The notes beneath the pieces are model-generated. The model was not told the DNA's origin. It worked only from the letters and a program-made list of their open reading frames with translations, and ran no database searches. The translations under genes were made by a program, and so were the position numbers. From Eledone cirrhosa (Eukaryota), in assembly GCA_964016885.1 (NCBI GenBank), contig OZ024741.1, positions 31,806,001-31,870,000 of the forward strand: a stretch of 64,000 nucleotides of DNA, written 5' to 3'. Shown in pieces: positions 1-64,000 of the stretch. Within the stretch, counting starts at the first letter, position 1. Every line of letters starts with the position of its first letter.

Positions 1-3000
1 TAACAACAACAACAGCAACAATAACAACAACAACAGCAACAATAACACCAACAACAGCAATAATAACTACATCAGCAACAATAACAACAACAACAGCAGC
101 AATAACAACAACAACAGCAACAATAACAACAACAACAACAACAGAAGCAATAACAACATCGACAGCAGCAATACCAACAGCAACAGCAATAACAACATCA
201 ACAGCAATAACAATAACAACAGCAACAATAACAACAACAGCAGCAATAACAACAACAATAACAACATAAACTGCAACAATAACAACAATAACAGCAACAA
301 TTACAACATCTACAGCAAACATAAAAACAATAACAGCAGCAATAACACAGCAGCAATAACAACAGCAGCAATAACAACATCAACAGCAACAATAACAACA
401 TCAACATCAACAATAACAAAAACAACAGCAACAATAACAACAACAGCAGCAACACTAACAACGTCAATAGTAACAATAACAACAACAACAGCAACAATAA
501 CAAAATCAACAGTAACAATAACAACAACAGCAACAATAACAACATCAAAAGCAACAATAACAACAACAACAGCAACAATAACAACAACAACAGCAACAAT
601 AACAACAACAACAGCAACAATAACAACAACAACAACAAGAGCAATATCAAAATCAACAGCAACAATAACAACAACAACAGCACCAATAACAACAACAACA
701 ACAAAATAACAAGAACAACAACAGCAACAATAACAACAACAACAGCAGCAATAACAACATCAGCAGCAACAATAACAACATCAACAGCAGCAATATCAAC
801 ATCAACAGCAACAATAACAACTACAACAGTAACAATAAAAACAACGATAGCAACAATAACAATAACAATAACAACAACAACAATAACAACAATAAGAGCA
901 ACAACAACAGCAACAATAACAATAAAAACAGCAACAATGACATCATCAACAGCAACAATAACAACATGAACAACAACAATATCAACAACATCAGCAGCAA
1001 TAAAAACAACACCAGCAACAATAACAAAAATAACAGCAACAATAACAACAACAACAACAACAGCAACAATAACAACAACAACCGCAATAATAACAACAAC
1101 ATCAGCAACAATAACAACATCAAAAGCAACAATAACAACAATAAATGCATCAATAACAAAAACAACAGCAACAATAACAATATCAACAGCAGCAATAACA
1201 AAAACAACATCAGCAATAATAACATCAACAGCAATAATAACAACAATAAGAACAACAATAACAACATCAACAGCAACAATAACAACAATAAGAGCAACAA
1301 TAACAACAACAACAGCAATAATAACAACAATAACAGCAACAATAACAACACGACAGCAACAATAACAACAACAACAACAGCAACAATAACAACATCAACA
1401 GCAACAATAACAACAACAACTGCAGCAATAACAACAAAAACAGCAACAAAAACAACAATAACAGCAACAATAACAACAACAACAGCAACCATAACAAAAA
1501 AACAGCAACAATAACAACAGCAACAATAACAATATCAACACCAACAATAACAACGATAACAGCAACAATAACAACATCAACAGCAGCAATAACAACAATA
1601 GCAGCAACAATAACAACGACAAAAGCAGCAATAACAACAGCAACAATAACAACAACAACAGCAACAATAACGACAACAACAATAACAATAACAACAATAG
1701 CAGCAACAATAACAACAACAACAGCAACAATAACAATAAAAACAGCAACAATAACAACATCAACAGCAACAATAACAACAATAACAGGAACAATAACAAC
1801 ATCAACAGCAGCAATCACAACAATAGCAGCAACAATAACAACAACAACAGCAGCAATAACAACAGCAACAATAACAACAACAACGGCAACAATAACAACA
1901 ATAACAGCAGCAATAACAGCAACAACAGCAACAATAACAATAACAACAACAACAATAACAACAATAACAGCAACAATAACAAAAATAACAGCAACAATAA
2001 CAACATCAACAGCAGCAATAACAACAACAACAGCAACAATAACAATAGAAACAGCAACAATAACAACAACAACAGCAACAATAACAACATCAATAGTAAC
2101 AATAACAACAACAACATCAAGAATAACAACATCAACAGCATTAACAACAACAATAAGAGCAACAATAACAACATCAACAGCAACAATAACAACAATAACA
2201 GCAACGGTAACAACAACAACAGCAACAATAACAACAATAACAGCAACAATAACAACATCAACAGCAACAATAACAACAACAACAACATCAAGAATAACAA
2301 CATCAACAGCAACAATAATAACAATAACAGCAACAATAACAACAACAACAGTAACAATAACAACATCAACAGCAACAGTAACAACGACAACAGCAACAAT
2401 AACAACAACAAGAGCAACAATAACAACATCAACAGCAACAATAACAACATTAACAGCAACAATAACAACGACAACAGCAACAATAACAACATCAACAGCA
2501 ACAATAACAACATTAACAGCAACAATAACAACAGCAAGAGCAACAATAACAACAATAAGAGCAACAATAACAACATCAACAGCAACAATAACAACATCAA
2601 CAGCAGCAATAACAACAACAACAACAACAGCAGCAATAACAATAATAGCAGCAACAATAACAACAATAACAGCAACAATAACAACAACAACAACATCAAT
2701 AACAACAGCAACAATAACAACATCAACAGCAACAATAAAAACAACAACAGCAACAATAACAACATCAACAGCAACAATAACAACACCAACACCAGCAATA
2801 ACAACAACAACCGCAACAATAACAGCAATAACCACAACAATAACAACAACAACAGCAACAATAACAAAAACAACAGCAACAATAACAACAATAACAGCAA
2901 CAATAACAACAACAACAGCAACCATAACAAAAACAACAGCAACAATAACAACAATAACAGCAACAATAACAACAATAACAGCAACAATAACAACGACAAC

Positions 3001-6000
3001 AGCAGCAATAACGACAACAACGGCAACATTAACAACATCAACAGCAACAATAACAACAATAACATCAACAATAACAACATCAACAGCAGCAATAACAACA
3101 ATAACAGCAACAATAACAACAATAACAGCAACACTAACCACATCAACAGCAACAATAACAACATCATCAGCAGCAATAACAACATGAACAGCAACAATAA
3201 CAACAATAACAGCAACAATAACAACAACAACAATAACAATAACAACAATAACAGCAACAATAACAACAGCAACAGCAACAATAACAATAAAAACAGCAAA
3301 AATAACAACATCAACAGCAACAATAACAACAATAACAGCAACAATAACAACATCAACAGAAGCAATAACAACAACAACAGCAACAATAACAATAGAAACA
3401 GCAACAATAACAACAACAACAGCAACAATAACAACATCAACAGCAGCAATAACAAAAACAACAACAGCAACAATAACAACATCAATAGTAACAATAACAA
3501 CAACAACATCAAGAATAACAACATCAACAGCATTAACAACAACAATAAGAGCAACAATAACAACATCAACAGCAACAATAACAACAATAACAGCAATAAT
3601 AACAACATCAACAGAAGCAATAACAACAACAACAGCAACAATAACAATAGAAACAGCAACAATAACAACAACAACAGCAACAATAACAACATCAACAGCA
3701 GCAATAACAAAAACAACAACAGCAACAATAACAACATCAATAGTAACAATAACAACAACAACATCAAGAATAACAACATCAACAGCATTAACAACAACAA
3801 TAAGAGCAACAATAACAACATCAACAGCAACAATAACAACAATAACAGCAACAGTAACAACAACAACAGCAACAATAACAACAATAACAGCAACAATAAC
3901 AACATCAACAGTAACAATAACAACAACGACAACATCAAGAATAACAACCTCAACAGCAACAATAATAACAATAACAGCAACAATAACAAGAACAACAGTA
4001 ACAATAACAACATCAACAGCAACAGTAACAACAACAACAGCAACAATAACAACAAGAGCAACAATAACAACATCAACAGCAACAATAACAACATTAACAG
4101 CAACAATAACAACGACAACAGCAACAATAACAACATCAACAGCAACAATAACAACATTAACAGCAACAATAACAACAGCAAGAGCAACAATAACAACAAT
4201 AAGAGCAACAATAACAATATCAACAGCAACAATAACAAGATCAACAGCAGCAATAACAACATCAACAGCAACAATAACAACAACAACAGCAGCAATAACA
4301 ATAATAGCAGCAACAATAACAACAATAACCACAACAATAACAACAAAAACAGCAAGAATAACAACAAAAACATCGACAATAATAACAACAAGAGCAACAA
4401 TAACAACATCAACAGCAACAATAACAACATCAACATCAAACATAACAACAACAATAGCAACAATAACAACAATAACAGCAACAATAAGAACAACAACAGC
4501 AGCAATAACAACAATAGCAGCAACAATAACAACAAGAGCAGCAACAATAACAACAACAACAGCAGCAATAACAACAACAACACTAACAATAACAACAATA
4601 ACAGCAGCAATATCAACAACAATAGCAACAATAACAACATCAACATCAACAATAACAACAACAACAGCAACAATAACAACATCAAAAGCAACAATAACAA
4701 CAACAACAGCAACAATAACAACATCAACATCTACAATAAGAACAACAACAGCAACAATAACAACAATAACAGCAACAATAACAACAACAACAACATCAAT
4801 AACAACAGCAACAATAAGAACATCAACAGCAACAATAAAAACAACAACAGCAACAATAACAACATCAACAGCAACAATAACAATAGAAACAGCAACAATA
4901 ACAACAACAACAGCAACAATAACAACAATAACAGCAACAATAACAACATCAACAGCAACAATAACAACAACAACAACATCAAGAATAACAACATCAACAG
5001 CAACAATAATAACAATAACAGCAACAATAACAACAACAACAGTAACAATAACAACATCAACAGCAACAGTAACAACGACAACAGCAACAATAACAACAAC
5101 AAGAGCAACAATAACAACATCAACAGCAACAATAACAACATTAACAGCAACAATAACAACGACAACAGCAACAATAACAACATCAACAGCAACAATAACA
5201 ACATTAACAGCAACAATAACAACAGCAAGAGCAACAATAACAACAATAAGAGCAACAATAACAACATCAACAGCAACAATAACAACATCAACAGCAGCAA
5301 TAACAACAACAACAACAACAGCAGCAATAACAATAATAGCAGCAACAATAACAACAATAACAGCAACAATAACAACAACAACAACATCAATAACAACAGC
5401 AACAATAACAACATCAACAGCAACAATAAAAACAACAACAGCAACAATAACAACATCAACAGCAACAATAACAACACCAACACCAGCAATAACAACAACA
5501 ACCGCAACAATAACAGCAATAACCACAACAATAACAACAACAACAGCAACAATAACAAAAACAACAGCAACAATAACAACAATAACAGCAACAATAACAA
5601 CAACAACAGCAACCATAACAAAAACAACAGCAACAATAACAACAATAACAGCAACAATAACAACAATAACAGCAACAATAACAACGACAACAGCAGCAAT
5701 AACGACAACAACGGCAACATTAACAACATCAACAGCAACAATAACAACAATAACAGCAACAATAACAACATCAACAGCAGCAATAACAACAATAACAGCA
5801 ACAATAACAACAATAACAGCAACAATAACCACATCAACAGCAACAATAACAACATCATCAGCAGCAATAACAACATGAACAGCAACAATAACAACAATAA
5901 CAGCAACAATAACAACAACAACAATAACAATAACAACAATAACAGCAACAATAACAACAGCAACAGCAACAATAACAATAAAAACAGCAAAAATAACAAC

Positions 6001-9000
6001 ATCAACAGCAACAATAACAACAATAACAGCAACAATAACAACATCAACAGAAGCAATAACAACAACAACAGCAACAATAACAATAGAAACAGCAACAATA
6101 ACAACAACAACAGCAACAATAACAACATCAACAGCAGCAATAACAAAAACAACAACAGCAACAATAACAACATCAATAGTAACAATAACAACAACAACAT
6201 CAAGAATAACAACATCAACAGCATTAACAACAACAATAAGAGCAACAATAACAACATCAACAGCAACAATAACAACAATAACAGCAATAATAACAACATC
6301 AACAGAAGCAATAACAACAACAACAGCAACAATAACAATAGAAACAGCAACAATAACAACAACAACAGCAACAATAACAACATCAACAGCAGCAATAACA
6401 AAAACAACAACAGCAACAATAACAACATCAATAGTAACAATAACAACAACAACATCAAGAATAACAACATCAACAGCATTAACAACAACAATAAGAGCAA
6501 CAATAACAACATCAACAGCAACAATAACAACAATAACAGCAACAGTAACAACAACAACAGCAACAATAACAACAATAACAGCAACAATAACAACATCAAC
6601 AGTAACAATAACAACAACGACAACATCAAGAATAACAACCTCAACAGCAACAATAATAACAATAACAGCAACAATAACAAGAACAACAGTAACAATAACA
6701 ACATCAACAGCAACAGTAACAACAACAACAGCAACAATAACAACAAGAGCAACAATAACAACATCAACAGCAACAATAACAACATTAACAGCAACAATAA
6801 CAACGACAACAGCAACAATAACAACATCAACAGCAACAATATCAACATTAACAGCAACAATAACAACAGCAAGAGCAACAATAACAACAATAAGAGTAAC
6901 AATAACAATATCAACAGCAACAATAACAAGATCAACAGCAGCAATAACAACATCAACAGCAACAATAACAACAACAACAGCAGCAATAACAATAATAGCA
7001 GCAACAATAACAACAATAACCACAACAATAACAACAAAAACAGCAAGAATAACAACAAAAACATCGACAATAATAACAACAAGAGCAACAATAACAACAT
7101 CAACAGCAACAATAACAACATCAACATCAAACATAACAACAACAATAGCAACAATAACAACAATAACAGCAACAATAAGAACAACAACAGCAGCAATAAC
7201 AACAATAGCAGCAACAATAACAACAAGAGCAGCAACAATAACAACAACAACAGCAGCAATAACAACAACAACACTAACAATAACAACAATAACAGCAGCA
7301 ATATCAACAACAATAGCAACAATAACAACATCAACATCAACAATAACAACAACAACAGCAACAATAACAACATCAAAAGCAACAATAACAACAACAACAG
7401 CAACAATAACAACATCAACATCTACAATAAGAACAACAACAGCAACAATAACAACAATAACAGCAACAATAACAACAACAACAACATCAATAACAACAGC
7501 AACAATAAGAACATCAACAGCAACAATAAAAACAACAACAGCAACAATAACAACATCAACAGCAACAATAACAACACCAACACCAGCAATAACAACAACA
7601 ACCGCAACAATAACAGCAATAACCACAACAATAACAACAACAACAGCAAAAATAACAAAAACAACAGCAACAATAACAACAATAACAGCAACAATAACAA
7701 CAACAACAGCAACCATAACAAAAACAACAGCAACAATAACAACAATAACACCAACAATAACAACAACAACAGCAGCAATAACAACATCAACAGCAACAAT
7801 AACAACAATAACAGCAACAATAACAACAACAACAGCAACAATAACAACAACAACAGCAACAATAACAACAATAACAGCAACAATAACAACAACAACAGCA
7901 GCAATAACAACAATAACAGCAACAATAACAACATCAACAGCAACAATAACAACAACAACAGCAGAAATAACAACAACAACAGTAACAATAACAACAATAA
8001 CAGCAGCAAAAACAACAACAACAACAGCAACAATAACAACATCAACAGCAACAATAACAACATCAACAGCAACAATAACAACATCAACAGCAACAATAAC
8101 AACAACAGCAGTAACAATAACAACATCAACAGCAACAATAACAACATCAACAGCAACAATAACAACAACAACAGCAGCAATAACAACATCAACAGCAACA
8201 ATAACAACAATAACAGTAACAATAACAACAACAACAGCAACAATAACAACAACAACAGCAACAATAACAACAACAACAGCAACAATAACAACATCAACAG
8301 CAACAATAACAACATTAACAGCAACAATAACAACAACAAGAGCAACAATAACAACAACAACAGCAACAATAACAACAATAACAGCAACAATAACAACATC
8401 AACAGCAACAATAACAACAACAACATCAATAATAACAACCACAACAACAGCAACAATAACAACAACAACAGCAGCAATAACAACGTCAACAGCAACAATA
8501 ACAACATCAACAGCAGCAATATCAACATCAACAGCAACAATAACAACTACAACAGCAACAATAACAAGAACATCAGCAGCAACAACAACAACAATAGCAA
8601 CAATAACAACAACAACAGCAGCAATAACAACATCAACAGCAACAATAACAACAATAACAGTAACAATAACAACAACAACAGCAACAATAACAACAACAAC
8701 AGCAACAATAACAACAACAACAACAACAATAACAACATCAACAGCAACAATAACAACAACAACAGCAGAAATAACAACAACAACAGTAACAATAACAACA
8801 ATAACAGCAGCAAAAACAACAACAACAACAGCAACAATAACAACATCAACAGCAACAATAACAACAACAACAGCAACAATAACAACATCAACATCAACAA
8901 TAACAACATCAACTGCAACAATAACAACAACAACAACAACAATAACAACAATAACAGTAACAATAACAACATCAGCAGCAGCAATAACAACAACAACCGC

Positions 9001-9800
9001 AACAATAACAACAATAACCACAACAATAACAACAACAGCAGCAATAACAAAAACAACAGCAACAATAACAACAACAACAGCAACAATAACAAAAACAACA
9101 GCAACAATAACAACAACAACAGCAACAATAACAACAACAACAGCAACAATAACAACAACAACAGCAACAATAACAACAATAACATCAACAATAACAACAA
9201 CAACAGCAACCATAACAAAAACAACAGCAACAATAACAAACATAACAGCAACAATAACAACAATAACAGCAGCAATAACAATAACAACAGCAGCAATAAC
9301 AACAGCAACAATAACAACATCAACAGCAACAATAACGACACAACAGCAACAATAACAACATCAACAGCAACAGTAACAACAATAACAGCAACAATAACAT
9401 CAACAGCAGCAATAACAACAATAGCAGCAACAATAACAACAACAGCAGCAGCAATAACAACAGCAACAATAACAACAACAACAACAACAGCAACAATAAC
9501 CACATCAACAGCAACAATAACAACATTAGCAGCAGCAATAACAACACAAAAGCAACAATAACAACAATAACAGCAACAATAACAACACAACAGTAACAAT
9601 AACAACATCAACAGCAACAATAACAACAACAACAGCAACAATTAAAACAACAACAACAATAATAACAACATCAAAAGCAACAATAACCACAACAACAGCA
9701 ACAATAACAAGAACAACAGCAACAATAACAACATTAGCAGTAACAATAACAACATCAAAAGCAATAACAACAACATCACTAACAAAACACAAGAAACAAC
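1..9800. repeat. Degenerate 21-bp AAC-rich tandem array (consensus ~ACAACAACAGCAACAATAACA)
   Basis: Continuous AAC/AAT/AGC/ATC triplets with 7-triplet periodicity; runs off the window start. Confidence 0.97.
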
Positions 9801-9879
9801 AACCTCCAGCTCAGCATCAACAACACCATCAGCATGTCCACAACACCATCACCATCATCAACATAATCAACATCATCAA

Positions 9880-12800
9880 CAACACCTTCATCACTATTAG
9901 CAACCTCCACCTCAGCATCAACAACACCCCAACACTATAAGCAACCTCCACCTCAGCATCAACAACACCCCATCACTATAAGCAACCTCCACCTCGGCAT
10001 CAACAACACCTCCATCACTATAAGCAACCTCCACCTCAGCATCAACAACACCTCCATCACTATAAGCAACCTCCACCTCAGCATCGACAACACCCCCATC
10101 ACTATAAGCAACCTCGACCTCAGCATCAACAACACCTCCATCACTATAAGCAACCTCCACCTCAGCATCGACAACACCCCCATCACTATAAGCAACCTCG
10201 ACCTCAGCATCAACAACAGCTCCATCACTATAAGCAACCTCCACCTCAGCATCAACAACACCTCCATCACTATAAGCAACCTCCACCTCAGCATCGACAA
10301 CACCCCATCTTTATAAGCAACCTCCACCTCAGCATCAACAACACCTCCATCACTATAAGCAACCTCCACCTCAGCATCAACAACACCTCCATCACTATAA
10401 GCAACCTCCACCTCAGCATCGACAACACCCCCATCACTATAAGCAACCTCCACCTCAGCATCAACAACACCCCCATCACTATAAGCAACCTCGACCTCAG
10501 CATCAATAACACCCCATCACTATTAGCAACCTCCACCTCAGCATCAATAACACCCCCATCACTATAAGCAACCTCCACCTCAGCATCAACAACACCCGCC
10601 CATCACTATAAGCAACCTCCACCTCAGCATCAACAACACCCGCCCATCACTATAAGCAACCTCCACCTCAGCATCAACAACACCCCCCCATAACTATAAG
10701 CAACCTCCACCTCAGCATCAACCCCCCCCCTCACTATAAACAACCTCCAGCTCAGCATCAACAACACCTCCATCACTATAAGCAACCTCCACCTCATCAT
10801 CAACAACACCCCATCACTATAAGCAACCTCCACCTCAGCATCAACAACACCCCCATCACTATAAGCAACCTCCACCTCAGCATCAACAACACCCCCATCA
10901 CTATAAGCAACCTCCACCTCAGCATCAACAACACCCGCCCATCACTATAAGCAACCTCGACCTCAGCATCAATAACACCCCATCACTATTAGCAACCTCG
11001 ACCTCAGCATCAACAACACCCCCATCACTATAAGCAACCTCCACCTCAGCATCAACAACACCCGCCCATCACTATAAGCAACCTCCAACTCAGCATCAAC
11101 AACACCCCCCCCATCACTATAAACAACCTCCACCTCAGCATCAACAACCCCCCATCACTATAAGCAACCTACATCCCAGCATCAACAACACCTCCATCAC
11201 TATTAGCAACCTACATCCCAGCATCAACAACACCTCCATCACTATTAGCAACCTCCACCTCAGCATCACCAACACCTCCATCACTATAAGCAACCTCCAC
11301 CTGAGCATCAACAACACCCCCATCACTATTAGCAACCTCCACCTCAGCATCAACAACACCCCTCCCATAACTATAAGCAACCTCCACCTCAGCATCAACA
11401 ACACCCCCCCATAACTATAAGCAACCTCCACCTCAGCATCAACACCCCCCCATCACTATAAACAACCTCCACCTCAGCATCAACAACACCCCCCCATAAC
11501 TATAAGCAACCTCCACCTCAGCATCAACACCCCCCCATCACTATAAGCAACCTCCACCTCAGCATCAACAACACCTCCATCACTATAAGCAACCTCCACC
11601 TCAGCATCAACAACACCCCCCATCACTATAAGCAACCTCCACCTCAGCATCAACAACAACCCCCATCACTATAAGCAACCTACATCCCAGCATCAACAAC
11701 ACCTCCATCACTATAAGCAACCTCCACCTCAGCATCAACAACACCTCCATCACTATAAGCAACCTCCACCTCAGCATCAACAACACCCCCCATCACTATA
11801 AGCAACCTCCACCTCAGCATCAACAACACCTCCATCACTATAAGCAACCTCCACCTCAGCATCAACAACACCCCCCATCACTATAAGCAACCTCCACCTC
11901 AGCATCAACAACACCCCCCATCACTATAAGCAACCTCCACCTCAGCATCAACAACACCTCCATCACTATAAGTAACCTCCACCTCAGCATCAACAACACC
12001 CCCCATCACTATAAGCAACCTCCACCTCAGCATCAACAACACCCCCCATCACTATAAGCAACCTCCACCTCAGCATCAACAACACCTCCATCACTATAAG
12101 CAACCTCCACCTCAGCATCAACAACACCCCCATCACTATAAGCAACCTCCACCTCAGCATCAACAACACCTCCATCACTATAAGCAACCTCCACCTCAGC
12201 ATCAACAACACCCCCCATCACTATAAGCAACCTCCACCTCAGCATCAACAACACCTCCATCACTATAAGCAACCTCCACCTCAGCATCAACAACACCCCC
12301 CATCACTATAAGCAACCTCCACCTCAGCATCAACAACACCTCCATCACTATAAGCAACCTCCACCTCAGCATCAACAACACCCCCCATCACTATAAGCAA
12401 CCTCCACCTCAGCATCAACAACACCCCCCATCACTATAAGCAACCTCCACCTCAGCATCAACAACACCTCCATCACTATAAGCAACCTCCACCTCAGCAT
12501 CAACAACACCTCCATGACTATAAGCAACCTCCACCTCAGCATCAACAACACCCCCCATCACTATAAGCAACCTCCACCTCAGCATCAACAACACCCCCCA
12601 TCACTATAAGCAACCTCGACCTCAGCATCAACAACACCCCCCCATAACTATAAGCAACCTCCACCTCAGCATCAACAACACCCCCATAACTATAAGCAAC
12701 CTCCACCTCAGCATCAACAACACCCCCCATCACTATAAGCAACCTCCACCTCAGCATCAACAACACCTCCATCACTATAAGCAACCTCCACCTCAGCATC

Positions 12801-14636
12801 AACAACACCCCCCATCACTATAAGCAACCTCCACCTCAGCATCAACAACACCTCCATCACTATAAGCAACCTCCACCTCAGCATCAACAACACCCCCCAT
12901 CACTATAAGCAACCTCCACCTCAGCATCAACAACACCTCCATCACTATAAGCAACCTCCACCTCAGCATCAACAACACCCCCCATCACTATAAGCAACCT
13001 CCACCTCAGCATCAACAACACCCCCCATCACTATAAGCAACCTCCACCTCAGCATCAACAACACCTCCATCACTATAAGCAACCTCCACCTCAGCATCAA
13101 CAACACCTCCATGACTATAAGCAACCTCCACCTCAGCATCAACAACACCCCCCATCACTATAAGCAACCTCCACCTCAGCATCAACAACACCCCCCATCA
13201 CTATAAGCAACCTCGACCTCAGCATCAACAACACCCCCCCATAACTATAAGCAACCTCCACCTCAGCATCAACAACACCCCCATAACTATAAGCAACCTC
13301 CACCTCAGCATCAACAACACCCCCCATCACTATAAGCAACCTCCACCTCAGCATCAACAACACCTCCATCACTATAAGCAACCTCCACCTCAGCATCAAC
13401 AACACCCCCCATCACTATAAGCAACCTCCACCTCAGCATCAACAACACCTCCATCACTATAAGCAACCTCCACCTCAGCATCAACAACACCCCCCATCAC
13501 TATAAGCAACCTCCACCTCAGCATCAACAACACCTCCATCACTATAAGCAACCTCCACCTCAGCATCAACAACACCCCCCATCACTATAAGCAACCTCCA
13601 CCTCAGCATCAACAACACCCCCCATCACTATAAGCAACCTCCACCTCAGCATCAACAACACCTCCATCACTATAAGCAACCTCCACCTCAGCATCAACAA
13701 CACCTCCATGACTATAAGCAACCTCCACCTCAGCATCAACAACACCCCCCATCACTATAAGCAACCTCCACCTCAGCATCAACAACACCCCCCATCACTA
13801 TAAGCAACCTCGACCTCAGCATCAACAACACCCCCCCATAACTATAAGCAACCTCCACCTCAGCATCAACAACACCCCCATAACTATAAGCAACCTCCAC
13901 CTCAGCATCAACAACACCCCCCATCACTATAAGCAACCTCCACCTCAGCATCAACAACACCCCCCCATAACTATAAGCAACCTCCACCTCAGCATCAACA
14001 ACACCCCCCATCACTATAAGCAACCTCCACCTCAGCATCAACAACACCTCCATCACTATAAGCAACCTCCACCTCAGCATCAACAACACCCCCCATCACT
14101 ATAAGCAACCTCCACCTCAGCATCAACAACACCTCCATCACTATAAGCAACCTCCACCTCAGCATCAACAACACCCCCCATCACTATAAGCAACCTCCAC
14201 CTCAGCATCAACAACACCCCCCATCACTATAAGCAACCTCCACCTCAGCATCAACAACACCTCCATCACTATAAGCAACCTCCACCTCAGCATCAACAAC
14301 ACCTCCATGACTATAAGCAACCTCCACCTCAGCATCAACAACACCCCCCATCACTATAAGCAACCTCCACCTCAGCATCAACAACACCCCCCATCACTAT
14401 AAGCAACCTCGACCTCAGCATCAACAACACCCCCCCATAACTATAAGCAACCTCCACCTCAGCATCAACAACACCCCCATAACTATAAGCAACCTCCACC
14501 TCAGCATCAACAACACCCCCCATCACTATAAGCAACCTCCACCTCAGCATCAACAACACCCCCCCATAACTATAAGCAACCTCCACCTCAGCATCAACAA
14601 CACCCCCCATCACTATAAGCAACCTCCACCTCAGCG
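9880..14636. repeat. 42-bp minisatellite (CATCAACAACACCTCCATCACTATAAGCAACCTCCACCTCAG), roughly 110 units
   Basis: Near-identical head-to-tail units; length varies 41-44 bp through a poly-C tract. Confidence 0.97.
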
Positions 14637-16799: not shown

Positions 16800-19068
16800 T
16801 CATCATCATCATCATCATCAACGTTTAACGTCCGTGTTCCACGCTTGCATGGGTTTGGACGGGGTAGTCCCACTTGAGGCAAGAGTGATTGTCTTGCTCG
16901 CATAGGACTGTCTGGCAGGTTTTCTACAGTTGGATGCCCTTCCTAACACCAACCACATTTACAGTGTGGGTCTGGGAGGTTTTTACCGTGTTGCCTACAC
17001 GGCCACATTACAGCGTGGACTGTGTGTTTTTTTGTCGTGACACCTACACGATCTCATTTGTTTCGGCCTGGATGGTGTGGCACCAACACAACTTTACATA
17101 GAACGGGGTGGCGTGGATGGGGTGGGGGTGGTGGGACGGGGGGGGGGGGGTATTTTGTTAGAGATGCCTACTGGCTGTAGTAGGTTTTACTATGTATTTA
17201 GGTAAGGCGGGTCTTCTCTGTTACTGAGTACCGCCAGAGGTCTCGGTCCAGTGACATTGTCTTGGAGAGGTGTAAGTGTGTGAGGTCGGAGTTTATCAGC
17301 TCGTCCCAGGTTTTTCTAGGTCTGCCTATTCCGTGGCTACCGTCTATCTTTATTGCCCTGCACTTTGTTATACAGCTATCGACTTTCATGCGCATCACGT
17401 GTCCATACCAACGTAGCCTTCTCTCGAGTAAACAACATCTGATCCCTCTTATTTCTAATTTTTTCCTTAGTTCGTTTATGCTTTGCCGTTCACGTATATT
17501 ACTGTTACACATCCAGCGGAGCATGCAAGCTTCGTTCCTCTCTAGTCTGCGTATATCCTCTGCACACAATGCCCAGGTCTCACTGCCATGCAACATTGCT
17601 GTTCGTATGCAGGCATCGTACAACCTGCCTTTCATTTTTAGGGAGAACCCTTTAGCAGCTAATAGTGGTATAAGCTCTCTGAACTTTTTCCAACCAGTTC
17701 TGACTCTAGCTACTGTACTTTCAGAGCACCCTGCCCCACTGCTGATTTTATCACCCAGGTAACGGAAACTGTCCACTATTTCTATAGAACACTCTGCGCA
17801 ATTGAAAGAGCTAGTATTTTGTGGGCATTTGCTGCTACTTATTGCACCAGAGCACCGGCCACATGTAAAATCTATGTTCTTAGTTAGCTTACCTGTGATC
17901 CCACTACATCTTTTATGCACCCATACTTTGCATTTAGGACATAAAATGGAGTTTCTACCTACGCCTTTCCTACACACCGAGCACGACCATTTCCCAGAAG
18001 GGACCGCCGCCTTATTTTCTTTCCTACAAACTAGAACTTTAGTCTTAGCCAGGTTAATTTTAAGGCCTTTTGATTCTAGGCCGTGCTTCCATGTTTGGAA
18101 TTTCTTCTCTAGCTCGGCCATTGATTCCGCTATGAGTGTCAGGTCGTCTGCGTATAGGAGTTCCCATGGGCAGCCGGTCTTGAACTCCTCTGTTATAGCC
18201 TGAAGGGCAATAATAAATAGTAGGGGGCTGAGAACAGAGCCCTGATGGACGCCAACTTTTACGCTAAACTCTTCACTATATTCGTTGTTAATTCTAACCT
18301 TGCTGACTGTTTCTTTATACATGGCTTGTATAGCTCTCACAAGCCATTCGTCAACGCCTAGTTTTCTAAGAGCCCACCAGATAATGGAGCGGGGGACTCT
18401 GTCGAAGGCTTTCTCCAAGTCGACAAAAGCTAAGTAGAGGGGTTTACTTTTAGCTAGGTACTTCTCCTGTAGTTGTCGTACAATGAAAAGAGCGTCTGTG
18501 GTACTTTTGCCTGACACAAACCCGAACTGCATTTCATCTTGGTCAATTCTCTCTCTGATTAGTTGTGCTATTACTTTTTCCATGACCTTCATGACCTGGT
18601 CGATTAATTTAATGCCTCTATAGTTACTCCTATCTAGGGCGTCTCCTTTACCCTTATAACAGGTAACGATGATGCTGCTATGCCAGTCCTTCGGAACAAC
18701 CCCATTCTGTACGACTTGGTTAACTATGCGGGTGACCATGGTGTGTCCCACCGTGCCAGATGCCTTCAGCATCTCAGCAACTATTTCCGAAGGCCCAGCC
18801 GCCTTACCCGTCTTCATATCCTTGATTGCCTTACTTATTATACTTCCCTCGACTAACACTGCTGGTCCCTCTATTGGGTCGATATGGGGGAGACTGTCTT
18901 TCTCCCATTTATTCTCCTCATTTAGTAGCCTTTCATAGTGACACTTCCAAGCTACCTTCTTATCAGCGTCGGTGATGGCAAGTGTGCCATCGTCGTTTAG
19001 TACACACTTCTCCCCGACAATATCACGGTTTTCCTTGACGCATTGCCTAGCAATCCTGAACACCTCAC
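16797..19068 (-). mobile_element. 5'-truncated RTE-clade LINE with (GAT)n tail, inserted in (TA)n
   Basis: RT ORF, ~380-bp 3' UTR and (GAT)n tail at 16797-16820; CACGTATAT at both flanks. Confidence 0.9.
17198..19063 (-). CDS. RTE reverse transcriptase (partial) with an internal PHD-type zinc finger
   Basis: YKGKGD..NYRGIKL, QFGF, FVDLEKAFD, GVHQGSVLSP, YADD, FRYLG, RRLRWYGHV, GRPRKTW motifs. Confidence 0.92.
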   Translation of the reverse strand: MFRIARQCVKENRDIVGEKCVLNDDGTLAITDADKKVAWKCHYERLLNEENKWEKDSLPHIDPIEGPAVLVEGSIISKAIKDMKTGKAAGPSEIVAEMLKASGTVGHTMVTRIVNQVVQNGVVPKDWHSSIIVTCYKGKGDALDRSNYRGIKLIDQVMKVMEKVIAQLIRERIDQDEMQFGFVSGKSTTDALFIVRQLQEKYLAKSKPLYLAFVDLEKAFDRVPRSIIWWALRKLGVDEWLVRAIQAMYKETVSKVRINNEYSEEFSVKVGVHQGSVLSPLLFIIALQAITEEFKTGCPWELLYADDLTLIAESMAELEKKFQTWKHGLESKGLKINLAKTKVLVCRKENKAAVPSGKWSCSVCRKGVGRNSILCPKCKVWVHKRCSGITGKLTKNIDFTCGRCSGAISSSKCPQNTSSFNCAECSIEIVDSFRYLGDKISSGAGCSESTVARVRTGWKKFRELIPLLAAKGFSLKMKGRLYDACIRTAMLHGSETWALCAEDIRRLERNEACMLRWMCNSNIRERQSINELRKKLEIRGIRCCLLERRLRWYGHVMRMKVDSCITKCRAIKIDGSHGIGRPRKTWDELINSDLTHLHLSKTMSLDRDLWRYSVTEKTRLT

Positions 19069-19088
19069 GTATATATATATATATATAT

Positions 19089-24359: not shown

Positions 24360-24395
<36 letters not shown>

Positions 24396-24434
24396 GATAT
24401 TAACAAATGGAAACTATATTTATAAAACCATATC

Positions 24435-24499
24435 TATTTTATTATACATATTTCAAGGATACCATGTTAAATTATGGTATGCTTTCATCAGACAAAATA
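24435..24499 (-). ncRNA. Hammerhead ribozyme in inverted pLTR (family E)
   Basis: Reverse complement of 27754-27818, core intact. Confidence 0.83.
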
Positions 24500-24682
24500 C
24501 AATTTATACCAGTTTTATTAATAAATATTGACATACCCTTTCAAAATGTAACCGTTACTTTTGGAAGACATCAGGGATAGTGGATTTGTTTACTTATATT
24601 AAGTCGTTGTGTTACGGAGAAGGAAAAATCTGGTGCTTACCTTATCTATCTATGTAAAACTCATAAATTACGGAACATAAAC

Positions 24683-26456
24683 CTTGAAAAACTGAATACA
24701 GATGCCTCTTGTATAATGCATGAACTAGACATTGAAAATAAGACGCAACCCTTCATGCCAAGGAAACCTAAGATTAATATGAAGGATCATAAAAGAAACT
24801 TCGAAACTGATTTACCAGTCAGATTAATTGCACCATCTAAATCTGGCCTTGGCAGACTTAGCAAAAATATTCTGGACAGAATAATACCGCAAATTAAGAA
24901 TTTACCTAATTTATCTTACTTAAAATTATGGAAAGGATCTATTGAGGTTATCGATTGGTTTAAAGAAATTAAATATAACTATAATAATAAGTTTATTCAG
25001 TTGGATATTGCTAACTACTACTCATCTATCACTCCTAATCTACTGAATAAGGCACTAACTTACGCATTTAAACATACAGACCTAACTAGCAATGAAATGC
25101 ACATTATATTATCGGCACGGAAAACATTAATAGAATTTAATAACCAACTCTGGACTAGGGCAGATAGAAATAATAATTTTGACATAACTATGGGATCTTC
25201 AGACTCAGCTCAGGTAACGGACCTTGTTATAATTAATTCTCTACATAGAAAAATTCCAGGTGTAACCGGAGATTTATATCGTGACGACATGCTTTTACTT
25301 ATAGAAAATAATAGCTGTGAACTAAATAGAAAAAGAAAACAAATTATACAATTTTTTAATTACCTTAATCTAAAAGTAGAAATAGAGAATAACCATAAAA
25401 TAGCCAATTTTCTAGATGTAACACTAAATCTTAACACATGTCTTCATTACCCATTTCACAAACTAAATGAGAACTTAAATTATGTCAATTTTATCTCTAA
25501 TCACCCCAGATCCGTTAAAAATACTATAGTGAACTCTGTACAAGAACGAATTTCGAGAATTTCATCTAATAAGAATATATTTGATGAAAAAGCGCATTAT
25601 TACAACGAAGCGTTAGGTAGAGCTGGGTATAGAAATAAAATTAAATACATCGATAATAATAATAATATAAAAACTAACCAAAACAATAACAATTTTAACT
25701 ATGGTAACAATTTTAACAACTATAATAGAAAACATTACAATAATTCCGAAAGCGGAAAAAGAAATAGAACTAGGAACATAGTATGGTTCGCTCCTCCTTT
25801 CTCACTAAATATTAAAACACCTATTGCTAAACTATTCTTTAAAGCTCTTGACAAACGCTTCCCTAGAACACATAGATATTACTCAATTTTTAGTAGACAT
25901 ACTATAAAATTAACTTACTCTTCCACCAAAAATTTAGCGCAAAATATTAATAGAATTAATAATAGAAATTTAAAACCTAACCACAATACCAATAATAACC
26001 CAAGCAATATTCAATCGAATAATTGTAACTGTAGAAATAATTCCAACTGTCCGTTAAATAACAAACAATTGCTTAGCTAAAAATGTAGTTCATAATTGTA
26101 ATGTAAAAACTAATTTAAATTCATTTAATTATGTCGGTTCTACCTCCACAGAGTTTAAATCCCGCTTCAATAATCATAAAAATTATTTTACAGATCCAAA
26201 CAAAAAATCTTCAACTTCGCTATCTAGCCTATTATGGGACCTAAAACGAGATAATGTTAAATATTCGCTGATTTGGAATATTATTTCATAAGCTACTCCT
26301 TTTAATTCCTCTTCAGAAAATTTCGATCTTTGTATAGAGGAAATATTCTTTATATTAAAGACCAAAAATTCCCTGAATTTAAGGAATAATTTATTCAGTT
26401 GCTGCAGACATAGATTGAACTCAATGTTTAAATATAAATATAAATTTAAAATGTAG
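24683..26456 (+). pseudogene. PLE RT + GIY-YIG endonuclease, frameshifted at ~26065 (Hydra-clade-like)
   Basis: MKDHKRNF, QLDIANYYSSI, FDITMGS, LYRDD, NFLDVTL, SNHP, CNCRNNSNCPL; shifted frame gives NVVH..YVGSTSTEFKSRFNNH..CCRH with one in-frame stop. Confidence 0.88.
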
Positions 26457-27753
26457 TATAATTAATTAAGTAATTTGGTTAATATATAAAACCTGTCGAT
26501 AAAACATTAGATTCCTTCACCTTTTTCATTTTTCATTTTCTTTGGTTAAGTACTCAAGTATAAATAAATTTTCTTCCTAAATATAAATATAAATATAATA
26601 AACTATTCTAGAGAAATATATTGAGAGCTCTTGAAAGGAGAAAATATTTCCTATTTCTTATTTTTTAAATATTTTTTATATTTTTCATATTTTAATATTT
26701 TAATATTTTAGAATACTTTTGTTTTTAAGTTATATTGATATAATTATATTTCCAAAATATAATCCTTTTGTATTTTATGTACTCAATTATACTATGTAAT
26801 ATATTGATGTATACTTATCTATATACGAGTATTTATGTATATGTGTATATTAACATACATATACATGTGTTATATGCATTTTTATGGATATATGTCTGTC
26901 TGTATATATGCATGCGTGACGCGTGTCTACCAATTGGCTGAGGATGCACACACATGTTTATATATTTATATGTAATAATTGTGTGTGTACATGTACATAT
27001 GTATCCATACAATTTGATTGCAGATAGACATAATTAACAGCCATAAATGCATGACAGCTAACACAAAGGATGTATAACATTAATAAAAAAAATCATTTAT
27101 GCTTTGTATGTATATATTATATACGGGGTAGATATGTGTATTTTCTGAGTGTGTGTATATATATATTTATGTGTATTTTTGCGTGTGTGTACGTGTTATA
27201 TGATATGTAATTTCTTTAGCAATATATAGATTTTTTAATGTTTAAATTGCAATATTTAATATATTGATCTCAATTTTTAAACTAAATATCTAATCGTAGT
27301 TAAACAATGATTAATTTCTCATATTATATATGTATATTCCATTCATAAATATTAATATTTCTAATTTTATTTATTCATTTCATCACAATTGTTAACTTAA
27401 CTTAATATGACATGACTTAAGGTTTTCGTTCTCTCCCCCTCTCTCTATCTCTATATTTCTCTCTCTCGATGTTTTTCTGTCTGTCTGGTGTTTTTATATC
27501 TCTCTTTCGTTTTTCTCTTTTTTCTTTTTTCTTTTTTCTCTTTTCTTTTTTTTTCTTTTTCTTTCTTTATTTCTCCCTTTCTCTCTCCGCTTTTCTCTCT
27601 CTCCGTTTTTTCTCTCTCTCCGTCTTTTTCCTTCTCCGTAACACAACGACTTAATATAAGTAAACAAATCCACTATCCCTGATGTCTTCCAAAAGTAACG
27701 GTTGCATTTTGAAAGGGTATGTCAATATTTATTTATAAAACTGGTATATATTG

Positions 27754-27818
27754 TATTTTGTCTGATGAAAGCATACCATAATTTCACATGGTATCCTTGA
27801 AATATGTATAATAAAATA
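27754..27818 (+). ncRNA. Hammerhead ribozyme in 3' pLTR (family E)
   Basis: TATTTTGT-CTGATGA-[AAGCATACCAT..ATGGTATCCTT]-GAAA-TATGTA-TA-ATAAAATA; sense to the PLE ORF. Confidence 0.88.
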
Positions 27819-27945
27819 GATATGGTTTTATAAATATAGTTTCCATTTGTTAATATCGTATATTTACTCCAAATACTTGTCGAGTGCTTTATATCAGTTA
27901 TAAAAATATTTGCTTGTTGTATCCCAACAATTTAAATAGAACTTT

Positions 27946-46231: not shown

Positions 46232-46334
<103 letters not shown>

Positions 46335-46364
46335 AAAGAATAGAGGTGTAACACACAAGTTATT

Positions 46365-49185
<2,821 letters not shown>

Positions 49186-49244
49186 TATGAAAGACGTAAA
49201 ATAAGAAAATTTTAAAAATTAAAAATTAACTTACTAAAATTTTC

Positions 49245-49326
49245 ACTCCAACTAATTAGTTTCTGTAATGGGATAAATATAGTTACACAATGTAACTATC
49301 GAGAATTCATTACGTCATCAGGGAGT
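49245..49326 (-). ncRNA. Hammerhead ribozyme (family G), copy 1
   Basis: ACTCC-CTGATGA-C-GTAATG..ATAGTTACA/TGTAACTAT..CATTAC-A-GAAA-CTAATTAG-TT-GGAGT. Confidence 0.88.
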
Positions 49327-49777
49327 CTATTCTGAGCTAAGTTCCCAGGCAATGCGCGGACACTAGGAACCCATATAAAAATAATAATTCAGTGGATGTA
49401 ATAAGCTAGCAGTGGATGTAATAAGCATAGCACTGAAAAAGTTCACTGCTTCTGGTCAGTGGTGGATTCTAAAGAATCAATCACATGACACTGAGGTTAG
49501 TCAGTTAGGAGTGGGGTGGTATTATGACAAGAGCCTACTACTACTACTATGAATTAGCAGTAGATTTGGCAAGTTTGCTCAACAAATAATTTGGAGATAA
49601 ATATAGAGAATTAATACATCTACCAACATATGCGTACAGATGTACACTAATACTAGTAAATATATAAGTTATGTCAAAGTACCTAGGTGGTTCAATGCAG
49701 GGGGATGCAGAACAATTATATGAAAGACGTAAAATAAGAAGATTTTAAAAATTAAAAATTAACTTACTAAAATTTTC

Positions 49778-49859
49778 ACTCCAACTAATTAGTTTCTGTA
49801 ATGGGATAAATATAGTTACACAATGAAACTATCGAGAATTCATTACGTCATCAGGGAGT
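49778..49859 (-). ncRNA. Hammerhead ribozyme (family G), copy 2
   Basis: Same as copy 1 with one distal stem II mismatch. Confidence 0.88.
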
Positions 49860-50173
49860 CTATTCTCAGCTAAGTTTCCAGGCAATGCGCGGACACTAGG
49901 AACTCATATAAAAATAATAATTCAGTGGATGTAATAAGCTAGCGGGGACTAAATTCCATAGCACTGAAAAAGTTCACTGCCTCTGGTCAACTAATTAGTT
50001 GGAGTGAAAATTTTAGTAAGTTAATTTTTAATTTTTAAAATTTTCTTATTTTACGTCTTTCATATACTTGTTCTGCATTCCCCTGCATTGAACCACCTAG
50101 GTACTTTGACATAACTTATATATTTACTAGTATTAGTGTACATCTGTACGCATATGTTGGTAGATGTATTAAT

Positions 50174-50268
<95 letters not shown>

Positions 50269-61793: not shown

Positions 61794-62096
61794 GCGCGGG
61801 GACATAGAAATAATCGGGCTGGATGCCCGATCGCGCAGTTAAACCACTGGGAGTGAAGAACCCCTAGCCCATGTCAGGGTATTCTTCTAGGAGAAGGCAT
61901 CTCAGGAAACTGGGTTAACTCCGATATAAAACCTGCGGCTCAGTAGTTACCGATGATGTTGATCTTTTCTTCTTTTCGGGTTATAGCTACTGTCGCTCAG
62001 AGAGTGGGATTGGTTCAGTGCACAGTCTTTCCTCACTTTAAAAATATTCGTCACGCACAGGCATTGCACGAGTGCATTAATAATTATTAATAGTGT

Positions 62097-62131
<35 letters not shown>

Positions 62132-62149
62132 TATTATTACTTTTTTTTT

Positions 62150-62194
<45 letters not shown>

Positions 62195-64000
62195 CCAATT
62201 CAATGATGTTCCAGAACAATGTAAACGAGATAATTGCCAATTTGGGTTCTGGAACAAAAAAGATCATTGGCAATAAGGGCAGGGGCCCCAAGTTATCACA
62301 ACCTGGGCCCGCCCGTCATCGTGCCATTGTAATAGAGCCAAACAGGGCATTTAGTCTTGGCTGCTGGAACGTACGGACGCTGCTTGACAGGGATTCTTTG
62401 GAGCGTCCTGAACGAAGGACCGCTCTTGTTGCGAAGGAGCTTCGACGTTACGATCTTGACATCGTGGCTTTGTCTGAGACGAGGTTAGCTGGAGATGGTC
62501 ATCTTACGGAATTTTGTGGAGAATATACATTCTTCTGGAAAGGAAGAGATGAAGGAACCAGAAGAGAGGCTGGGGTAGGATTTGCTGTTAAGACTGTACT
62601 GGTGAATAAATTAGAAGAATTCCCAGTGGGGATTAGTGAGCGTCTTATGTCCATGAGAGTTCCGCTGGACAAGGGAAGATATGCTACCCTGGTGAGTGTG
62701 TATGCTCCAACTATGAATTCTGTCGATGAAGAAAAACTGTCCTTTTACCATGCCTTGAAAGGTGTTTTAAGAAATATCCCTCAGGCAGACAAAGTCATCG
62801 TGCTTGGTGACTTTAATGCTAGAGTGGGTAGGGATTTTAACACATGGAATGTAATCGGAAGGCATGGGGTGGGAAAGTGTAACAGCAATGGTATGCTCTT
62901 GCTGCAGATGTGTGAGGAGCTGGATCTGTGTGTTACCAACACCATGTTCCAACAAAAGAACAAATTCAAGACCACATGGATGCATCCTGCATCTAAGGAA
63001 TGGCATCTTTTGGACTACGTCCTAGTCAGGATGCGTGACAGACAGGATGTGCGGTGTGTTCGTGTTCTTCGTGGAGCTGAGTGCTGGACGGACCACCGCC
63101 TGGTACGCGCAAAAGTGAATCTAATCACCAAACGTAAAATCCGGGCTCCTGGTGTTACCCTGCCCAAAAGATTGAATGCTGCTCGTCTTAAGGATAAAAA
63201 TGTGAAGAGGACATTGGAAGAAGAGATGCAGGCTGCAGATCTTGGTGAGGATTGGCCGACCCTTAAAAAGTCGGTTTATGATGTAGGCAGACGTGTTCTG
63301 GGATTGGTGCAGAGAAAACATCAGGACTGGTTTAATGAGAAAGATGTGCATATAGATGACTTGTTGGCTGATAAGAGGCGCGCTCTGTCACGCTACTTGA
63401 CGGCAAAACCACAGGAGAGGAATACGTTGCATGAGGAGCTCAGGGATGTAAAATCACGTGTTAGGCGGAGTCTTTCTCAGATGAAGGATCAGTGGTGGAG
63501 TGAGAAGGCTGGTGAGATACAAACTGCGTCTGATTGCAATAACACAAAGCTGTTGTACAGTCTCTTGCGTGAGGTTTATGGACCGTCTTCTTCTCTGGTG
63601 ACACCGATTCGCAGCAGGGATGGCAAAGAACTTCTTCGTGACTCACAGGGAATTCTACGAAGGTGGCGAGAGCACTTTGATGATCTTTTGAATCAGCCGT
63701 CTGTCGTCAGTGAAGATTTCCTCAATCTCATTCCGGAAAGTCCTGTGAAAGTAGCTCTCGCAGAACCTCCGACACTTGTGGAGGTTGCAGTGGCTATTTC
63801 GAAGCTGAACAGTGGAAGATCTCCAGGTATGGATGGCATACATGCTGAGCTCCTACAATATGAGCTGTTGGAAGGATATGGGCTAATGAATCCGTGCCTG
63901 AGGACTGGAGACATGCAGTAATGGTGGTCTTGTACAAGGGAAAGGGTAACAGGAATGATTGTGGGAACTACAGAGGTATATCATTGCTTTCTGTCGTGGG
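61794..64000 (+). mobile_element. RTE/BovB-like LINE (5' UTR + ORF), runs off the window
   Basis: Structured 5' region followed by APE and the start of RT; poly-T/(TTA)n block at ~62090-62195. Confidence 0.85.
62203..63921 (+). CDS. RTE APE endonuclease + linker, frameshifted at ~63870 before the RT
   Basis: WNVRTLLD, RRTALVAKEL, ALSETR, GVGF, SVYAPT, LGDFNARVG, TWMHP..WHLLDY, TDH; LYKGKG..CGNYRGISLL continues in another frame; true start uncertain. Confidence 0.9.
   Translation: MMFQNNVNEIIANLGSGTKKIIGNKGRGPKLSQPGPARHRAIVIEPNRAFSLGCWNVRTLLDRDSLERPERRTALVAKELRRYDLDIVALSETRLAGDGHLTEFCGEYTFFWKGRDEGTRREAGVGFAVKTVLVNKLEEFPVGISERLMSMRVPLDKGRYATLVSVYAPTMNSVDEEKLSFYHALKGVLRNIPQADKVIVLGDFNARVGRDFNTWNVIGRHGVGKCNSNGMLLLQMCEELDLCVTNTMFQQKNKFKTTWMHPASKEWHLLDYVLVRMRDRQDVRCVRVLRGAECWTDHRLVRAKVNLITKRKIRAPGVTLPKRLNAARLKDKNVKRTLEEEMQAADLGEDWPTLKKSVYDVGRRVLGLVQRKHQDWFNEKDVHIDDLLADKRRALSRYLTAKPQERNTLHEELRDVKSRVRRSLSQMKDQWWSEKAGEIQTASDCNNTKLLYSLLREVYGPSSSLVTPIRSRDGKELLRDSQGILRRWREHFDDLLNQPSVVSEDFLNLIPESPVKVALAEPPTLVEVAVAISKLNSGRSPGMDGIHAELLQYELLEGYGLMNPCLRTGDMQ

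What the first reader, a model, noticed from the sequence alone, without database searches (positions are those of the whole stretch)
49187..50177. Tandem intact hammerheads 533 bp apart with no ORF: retrozyme/circRNA candidate
Two same-strand intact ribozymes (49245-49326, 49778-49859) have an 8-nt palindromic stem III and a long stem II. One minus-strand transcript could form the dimeric fold and release a 533-nt non-coding monomer, the layout known for retrozymes that circularise. It lies next to a Neptune-like PLE that could supply RT in trans (inference).
Basis: partly seen in the sequence, partly recalled or inferred. Interest (0 to 1): 0.75.

Follow-up and report, generated by a model that had tools for sequence, protein, structure and literature searches.

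The report
Hammerhead retrozyme copied by Hydra-Penelope enzyme
A 533-base non-coding repeat with a conserved hammerhead (self-cutting RNA) fold has spread to thousands of sites in this animal genome as back-to-back copies, and hybrid insertions indicate that it is likely copied by a Hydra-type Penelope jumping-gene enzyme rather than by the element next door; whether it cuts itself or forms RNA circles is untested.

Summary
The two type I hammerheads, the 533-bp spacing and the lack of an ORF are confirmed. It belongs to a dispersed ORF-less family (9,169 exact ribozyme 22-mers; units 522-571 nt) whose stem II covaries. Arms end at two fixed sites about 115 nt apart; 77 of 79 fully called two-armed insertions pair one of each, the Penelope 'tail at one end'. 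The adjacent Neptune-like element shares no sequence with the unit. A Hydra-clade Penelope family shares a bulged tail hairpin and forms 2 head-to-head chimeras in 169 loci, so it is the likely mobiliser. A circular template is not shown: 5' ends pile up just after the cleavage site, a six-unit array repeats a dimer, this locus's two units differ, and read-through RNA is predicted to block the upstream ribozyme. No RNA data were obtained. Verdict: new member of the non-LTR retrozymes (non-autonomous Penelope-type elements). The scan noted similar two-armed families, probably this one too, elsewhere in this genome.

The parts
49188..49989 (-). Minus arm: 5'-truncated partial unit + one full unit + 62 nt, ending at fixed 3' end B (tail-less end)
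   Evidence: L001
49989..50178 (+). Plus arm, joined head-to-head: last 12 nt of the ribozyme, cleavage site, site B and the tail, ending at fixed 3' end A
49245..49326 (-). Downstream type I hammerhead; predicted cleavage 49250/49249
49778..49859 (-). Upstream type I hammerhead; predicted cleavage 49783/49782; its stem III and 3' stem I strand are complementary to the plus arm
49250..49782 (-). 533-nt unit between the two predicted cleavage sites; no ORF; circular fold -117.2 kcal/mol, z = -4.2
49605..49720 (-). Internal copy of the ~115-nt tail between priming sites B and A (second copy at 50063-50178, +)
49690..49713 (-). Bulged tail hairpin (4 bp, 2-nt 3' bulge, 4 bp, 6-nt loop), 7 nt after site B; same architecture in the Hydra-clade family; second copy 50070-50093 (+)
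49615..49664 (-). Long tail hairpin ending just before site A
   Evidence: predicted; 1 of 29 tail pairs with a double change
49390..49426 (.). Local duplication variant in the full unit only; found genome-wide at this place and in both arms of one other insertion 1.29 Mb away
49075..49187 (.). (TA)n target tract at end B, shared with the neighbouring PLE's inverted end
50177..50264 (.). (CT)n then (TA)n tract at end A
46330..49074 (-). Neighbouring 5'-truncated, broken Neptune-like PLE (RT part 48187-48744, GIY-YIG part 47571-48077, inverted end 48745-49074); a separate insertion, not the parent

Best explanation
This is one two-armed insertion of an abundant ORF-less hammerhead repeat (a non-LTR retrozyme) that was likely copied in trans by a Hydra-clade Penelope RT-endonuclease from a multi-unit RNA that is predicted to be only partly self-cleaved. 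Shown: dispersed family, no ORF, covarying ribozyme stem, (TA)n flanks, two fixed 3' ends paired one-to-one, 5'-truncated arms joined head-to-head, one haplotype per insertion. Inferred: (1) a tandem locus is transcribed (promoter unknown); (2) the weak hammerhead (2-bp stem III, palindromic loop, extra bases at stem II) cuts some junctions, probably as a dimer, giving RNAs that start at a cleavage site but keep an uncut or re-ligated junction (about 0.7); (3) the Penelope protein binds the bulged tail hairpin, nicks both strands of a (TA)n tract, primes one strand at site A and the other at site B, and the two cDNAs are joined at their 5' ends (about 0.8); (4) the protein comes from a Hydra-clade family (about 0.6). 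A monomer circle may exist (about 0.5) but is not needed for this insertion.
For: Family size and spread. End pairing: 27 independent A+B, 0 A+A, 0 B+B, 10 with one unclassified end in a position-ordered sample; 17 A+B of 18 and, in a second subfamily, 11 A+B, 2 B+B, 4 unclassified of 17; 22 A+B of 22 called pairs in 58 further loci. This matches the PLE layout (PMC8557442) and the two RT start sites used on both strands in vitro (PMC11167929). Stem II 98.8% paired with double changes at 2 of 6 pairs; four pair types at one position across subfamilies. 5' ends within 30 nt after the cleavage site: 14 observed, 2.6 expected (88 arms); replicate 10 versus 4.6 within 60 nt, p = 0.015. One haplotype per insertion: switches at 51 subfamily-diagnostic sites 2.3-2.7% within versus 37.5% between loci. 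Hydra link: head-to-head joins without TA spacer in L063 and L115, both our B end with the Hydra tailed end; CxCx5C linker; shared 4+4 bp bulged hairpin at +7/+8 after site B, 1-2 in 10,000 shuffles, present in 191 of 220 tail copies, absent from the Neptune tail.
Against: No RNA or biochemical data; cleavage is only predicted, and the pile-up of 5' ends could reflect a transcription start or an RT stall; the 1-30 window was chosen after seeing the data and the replicate is weaker. Only 2 chimeras in 169 loci, no formal null; Hydra pieces are the commonest of the three PLE families tested in the flanks (40 loci versus 22 and 13); 0 direct joins in 45 further Hydra loci. TA-less tandem joins occur with both Hydra (L221, two tail-less ends) and Neptune-type (L282) pieces, so such joins can arise otherwise. 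The A+B rule has exceptions (2 B+B; 2 A+A of 9 in the Hydra family). The unit has no primary-sequence similarity to the Hydra family, and a looser hairpin also occurs in another PLE family of the window. The ~115-nt tail is longer than the 30-40 bp described.
Confidence: 0.62

Rival explanations
1. Same element and enzyme class, but the usual template is a ligated monomer circle that the RT copies more than once round.
For: Passes within an insertion share one haplotype; rare alleles are shared across passes 31 times (15 + 16) against 2 pass-specific cases; 27 of 41 and 22 of 33 passes read through the cleavage site; monomer folds stably as a circle, z = -4.2; circles are shown for coral, mussel and axolotl retrozymes (PMC7229834). 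Homogeneity over many subfamilies needs some monomer bottleneck (inference).
Against: Excess 5' ends at the cleavage site; most arms cross only one junction (69 of 104; 3 of 104 cross three or more); the six-unit array L061 alternates with period two at three sites; this locus's two units differ by a variant shared with L002 and at family-polymorphic sites, and L002's passes differ in register; unprocessed RNA was the main substrate for a PLE in vitro (PMC11167929).
Confidence: 0.25
2. The adjacent Neptune-like family supplies the RT and endonuclease.
For: It is young and very abundant with intact 784-aa frames, uses (TA)n, has a tail at one end, abuts the element here and in L002, and one TA-less tandem join exists (L282).
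Against: No similarity to the unit, no hammerhead by my pattern, no bulged tail hairpin, 0 head-to-head joins in 13 loci holding its pieces; adjacency is expected from a shared (TA)n target.
Confidence: 0.08
3. The copies are leftover pLTRs of an ORF-bearing PLE, or a DNA-level satellite or fold-back repeat in which the ribozyme is incidental.
For: PLE insertions are often 5'-truncated to their ends (PMC8557442); only 169 loci of several thousand were inspected.
Against: The unit runs continuously into the next unit with a 522-571-nt period and never into a shared coding body; fixed 3' ends with scattered 5' ends are a reverse-transcription signature; stem II covaries across subfamilies about 20% apart.
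Confidence: 0.05

Closest known systems
Metazoan non-LTR retrozymes (Cervera and de la Pena 2020, PMC7229834, parts 2-4 of 6 and passages read; Li, Clavereau and Pollet, bioRxiv 10.64898/2026.07.22.740005, parts 1-3 of 5 read)
   Same: ORF-less tandem unit with one type I hammerhead per unit, low GC, thousands of copies, self-paired monomer, weak palindromic stem III that favours a dimeric fold, proposed PLE mobilisation.
   Different: Unit 522-571 nt (170-400 nt for the circles in the 2020 paper, 51-972 bp consensus range in the preprint); oversized stem II with extra C and A; mostly dispersed 1-2.5-unit two-armed insertions rather than long arrays; no pLTR sequence parent found; circles and cleavage not tested; a specific candidate mobiliser is named from chimeras.
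Hydra-clade Penelope-like elements (Craig et al. 2021, PMC8557442, passages and section 11 read)
   Same: Partial tandem plus inverted 5'-truncated copy, tail at one end, (TA)n targets; the candidate partner has the CxCx5C, CxxC and CxH motifs.
   Different: This element has no ORF; tail about 115 nt (80 nt in the partner family) against 30-40 bp described; no canonical hammerhead was found by my pattern in the partner's fetched ends.
Poseidon PAc of Anolis in vitro (Frangieh et al. 2024, PMC11167929, parts 1-2 of 4 read)
   Same: Two internal RT start sites that define the tail, both DNA strands cut and extended, AT-rich targets.
   Different: That paper reports no difference in start site between strands and no RNA-seq reads ending at the cleavage site; here the two arms take different sites almost without exception and copy ends cluster at the cleavage site.
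Non-autonomous Chlamys elements such as MRC1 (PMC8557442, passage)
   Same: Non-autonomous PLE dependants with pLTR-like head-to-tail copies.
   Different: Those share 3' sequence with autonomous families, and the paper found no canonical hammerheads in most Chlamys elements; here only a structure is shared.

Membership tests
non-LTR retrozyme | Type I hammerhead in each of at least two consecutive units | tested here: met
   core intact, extra C and A at the base of stem II
non-LTR retrozyme | No protein-coding capacity | tested here: met
   longest ATG frame 27 aa
non-LTR retrozyme | Repeated family of a few hundred bp, dimers to multimers, low GC | tested here: met
   up to six full units (L061)
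non-LTR retrozyme | Self-cleavage of the transcript | not testable with these tools
   indirect only: covariation and 5'-end pile-up
non-LTR retrozyme | Expression as linear and circular monomer RNA | not tested
   no reads were laid; genomic signs are mixed
non-autonomous Penelope-type element | Partial tandem with inverted 5'-truncated copy and tail at one end | tested here: met
   77 A+B, 2 B+B, 0 A+A, 15 with an unclassified end
non-autonomous Penelope-type element | Microsatellite (TA)n targets, no discernible TSD | tested here: met
   (TA)4 within 60 bp on at least one side in 74 of 75 rows, both sides in 53 (counted; no background control)
non-autonomous Penelope-type element | Sequence similarity to the 3' end or pLTR of an autonomous family | tested here: not met
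   none to the Neptune-like or Hydra family tested; other PLE families of the genome not surveyed; a shared hairpin architecture only
pLTR of an autonomous PLE | Continues upstream into an RT-EN frame | tested here: not met
   0 of 169 element loci with a shared coding body; single odd joins in L221 and L282
plant LTR retrozyme | Type III hammerhead in LTRs with 4-bp TSD | tested here: not met
   type I topology, tandem period, microsatellite flanks

The most novel reading that the evidence does not exclude
A Hydra-clade Penelope RT-endonuclease works as a two-site machine that primes one DNA strand at the tail's far end and the other at its near end, can load a different RNA at each site, and recognises cargo by a sequence-independent bulged hairpin; this retrozyme is a parasite of that signal, and the chimeric insertions are the first genomic identification of the enzyme that mobilises an animal retrozyme.
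Probability: 0.35. Interest if true: 0.75.

Novelty: new member of a known kind. Interest (0 to 1): 0.5.

Why it matters
The papers read propose that Penelope-like elements mobilise animal retrozymes through circles but do not name an enzyme or show the step. This family gives a concrete enzyme-RNA pair, a 24-nt candidate recognition hairpin and two mapped start sites, so the question becomes a direct in vitro assay. The near-strict pairing of the two ends explains the long-noted 'tail at one end' as asymmetric priming of the two strands. The copy ends also caution against assuming a monomer circle from a two-ribozyme layout. The element class itself is known, and the scan has noted similar families many times in this genome.

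Tried and rejected
No RNA holder listed among 5 runs; no reads or contigs were laid, so expression, cleavage ends and back-junctions stay open. Rfam gave no hammerhead match in the rows shown. An apparent cluster of 5' ends at one position was an artefact of a 4-bp indel in my query. A-to-I editing scars: no strand bias (A>G 91 versus T>C 141, ratio 0.87, p = 0.32). Neptune-like neighbour as parent: rejected. L002 as a duplicate or transduction of this locus: rejected, since truncation points differ and the flanking PLE piece is only 88% identical. Flank all-versus-all found only other repeats, no shared upstream body. More Hydra chimeras: 0 of 45 further Hydra loci, 0 of 18 further element loci. 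Pfam did not recognise the Hydra fragment or the neighbour's RT part; the Hydra label rests on motifs. One extraction pattern returned nothing and was corrected. A second excess of 5' ends at the 5' side of the ribozyme (18 versus 8.1) is unexplained and weak in the replicate (14 versus 11.4 in a wider bin). Literature searches listed no paper on cephalopod retrozymes, strict end pairing or retrozyme-PLE chimeras; subscription journals and the supplements of PMC8557442, PMC7229834 and the preprint were not seen and may hold this family or its partner.

Full report
Observation. The minus strand carries two type I hammerhead motifs whose CUGAUGA boxes start at 49321 and 49854, 533 bp apart, with predicted cleavage at 49250/49249 and 49783/49782. 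Stem I has 5 bp, stem III is a 2-bp stem with a palindromic loop (10-nt palindrome including the core pair), and stem II is a 6-bp helix, an internal loop and a 9-bp hairpin. An unpaired C and an unpaired A flank the G-C base of stem II in 147 of 149 and 162 of 164 aligned segments. An extra base at the 5' side is usual in PLE hammerheads (PMC4209133, passages); whether the added A is tolerated is untested, and mispairs next to the core are usually a reason for doubt (PMC3088659, passages). The unit has no ORF (27 aa). The region is not a simple dimer: an 802-nt minus arm is joined head-to-head to a 190-nt plus arm, between (TA)n on the left and (CT)n(TA)n on the right.

Family. A DNA search of the own genome (3.0 Gb) gave 2,379 candidates, 40 scored, full-length matches 92-98% identical. 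Exact ribozyme words occur 906 times (29-mer) and 9,169 times (22-mer), controls 0. Units are 522-571 nt, and a second subfamily is about 78-80% identical. On 14 hammerheads (13 of 18 diverse copies, five truncated or damaged ones dropped, plus the window's) stem II is 98.8% paired with double changes at 2 of 6 pairs; the covariation score beats 500 of 500 shuffles, but the number of doubly changed pairs does not (3 versus 3.8), and relatedness is not controlled. In 40 further loci one stem II position shows four pair types. No inspected locus continues into a shared coding body (169 loci after removing overlaps).

Insertion anatomy. Arms have two fixed 3' ends: B, about 66 nt after the cleavage site, and A, about 115 nt further. 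In a position-ordered sample, 28 two-armed insertions (27 independent) pair A with B, none A+A or B+B, 10 have one unclassified end. Other samples give 17 of 18, 11 of 17 with 2 B+B and 4 unclassified, and 22 of 22 called pairs. This is the PLE layout of partial tandem, inverted copy and tail at one end (PMC8557442). In vitro, a PLE protein cuts and extends both strands and starts at two internal sites that define the tail (PMC11167929). I infer that one strand is primed at A and the other at B. Both arms and all passes of an insertion come from one template lineage: switches at 51 diagnostic sites are 2.3% (tandem) and 2.7% (arms), equal to background, against 37.5% between loci (L061 and L024 left out).

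Template: circle or linear multimer. For a circle or another monomer bottleneck: haplotype homogeneity, rare alleles shared across passes 31 times against 2 pass-specific and 5 mixed cases, read-through of the cleavage site in 27 of 41 and 22 of 33 passes, and a stable circular fold (z = -4.2, 0 of 100 shuffles). Against a monomer circle as the rule: 5' ends pile up within 30 nt after the cleavage site (14 versus 2.6 expected; 88 of 104 arms, leaving out 13 that never cross the site, 2 duplicates and 1 with a deletion; window chosen after inspection), with a weaker replicate (10 versus 4.6 within 60 nt, p = 0.015). The one six-unit array alternates with period two at three sites. At this locus the full unit carries a local duplication that occurs genome-wide only here and in both arms of L002, 1.29 Mb away, while the upstream partial units of both loci show the standard form (6 or more bases in L002); the window's two units also differ at two diagnostic sites. 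These two insertions were therefore probably copied from a mixed multimer (linear, or a dimer circle) or with a template jump. For this locus as a source: the minus arm alone is predicted to form the shared stem III at 0.42, but stem I of the upstream ribozyme at only 0.01; with the antisense of the plus arm in front, the upstream site is sequestered at 0.998. No RNA data were obtained.

Mobiliser. The neighbour is a broken copy of an abundant Neptune-like family with intact 784-aa RT-GIY-YIG frames. It shares no sequence with the unit, no hammerhead by my pattern and no bulged tail hairpin. In L063 a B arm of the element is joined head-to-head, through a short fold-back and without TA, to a 5'-truncated PLE frame whose other end is that family's tailed end. 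L115 shows the same join with only the tail of that family. The family has the CxCx5C linker and CxxC and CxH motifs of the Hydra clade, two ends 80 nt apart, and pairs them A+B in 7 of 9 cases. Prompted by earlier scan notes, I tested for a shared tail hairpin: both RNAs have 4 bp, a 2-nt bulge, 4 bp and a 6-nt loop starting 7-8 nt after site B, with different stem sequences; shuffles give 1-2 in 10,000; 191 of 220 tail copies (overlapping loci not removed) keep it. Limits: two chimeras only; Hydra pieces lie in the flanks of 40 of 169 loci against 22 and 13 for two other families; 45 more Hydra loci gave no join; TA-less tandem joins occur with Hydra (L221) and Neptune-type (L282) pieces. 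Another Hydra-like family could be the true partner.

Comparison and verdict. The element meets the sequence-level definition of a non-LTR retrozyme (PMC7229834; bioRxiv 10.64898/2026.07.22.740005) and behaves as a non-autonomous Penelope-type element, though no sequence parent was found; cleavage and circles are untested. The class and the PLE link are in print; the searches run listed no paper with strict end pairing or retrozyme-PLE chimeras, but supplements and subscription papers were not seen. Earlier scan notes describe similar two-armed families in this genome and one of 518-601 nt that is probably this one (a look-up by sequence found nothing); they call the host a cephalopod, which I did not test. 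New member of a known kind; interest 0.5.

Noticed in passing
window 50177-50232 and A ends of other loci: A ends often carry (CT)n tracts (six or more repeats in at least 19 cases; 8 of 40) and B ends do not; the template there reads UCUCU, suggesting reiterative copying at RT start.
   Followed up: partly
L061 (G000:C1:199.06 Mb): Six-unit array whose units alternate with period two: a dimer repeated three times.
   Followed up: partly
L157:1863-8948, L158: Full-length Neptune-like family, 4.7-kb tandem unit, with a 455-aa open stretch overlapping the 784-aa RT-EN frame in another frame, many identical copies and no hammerhead by my pattern.
   Followed up: partly
window 24387-27940: Another two-armed PLE with a hammerhead in both ends, a tail at one end and a looser bulged tail hairpin.
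   Followed up: partly
window 19237, 20355, 20837, 20972, 21393, 23027, 29131, 33823, 42168, 44441, 44682, 53957, 58335, 58477: Further hammerhead-like cores by a loose pattern, several as opposed pairs; probably ends of other PLE families.
   Followed up: no
window 46330-49074 and L101:3670-5167: This locus and L002, the only two with the duplication variant, both abut the same Neptune-like family at their B end through independent copies; unexplained, possibly chance.
   Followed up: partly
L093:3437-3560: The 5' end of an arm is joined without TA to the end of another hammerhead-bearing repeat in the same orientation.
   Followed up: no
unit position 9 after the cleavage site: One A/C site accounts for 18 of 62 within-insertion switches at diagnostic sites; unexplained hot spot.
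   Followed up: no
window 1-14500; 17198-19087; 61987-63921: A 9.6-kb AAC-rich trinucleotide-type array followed by a 4.5-kb GC-richer array, and two RTE-like LINE frames (the RTE label is recalled).
   Followed up: no
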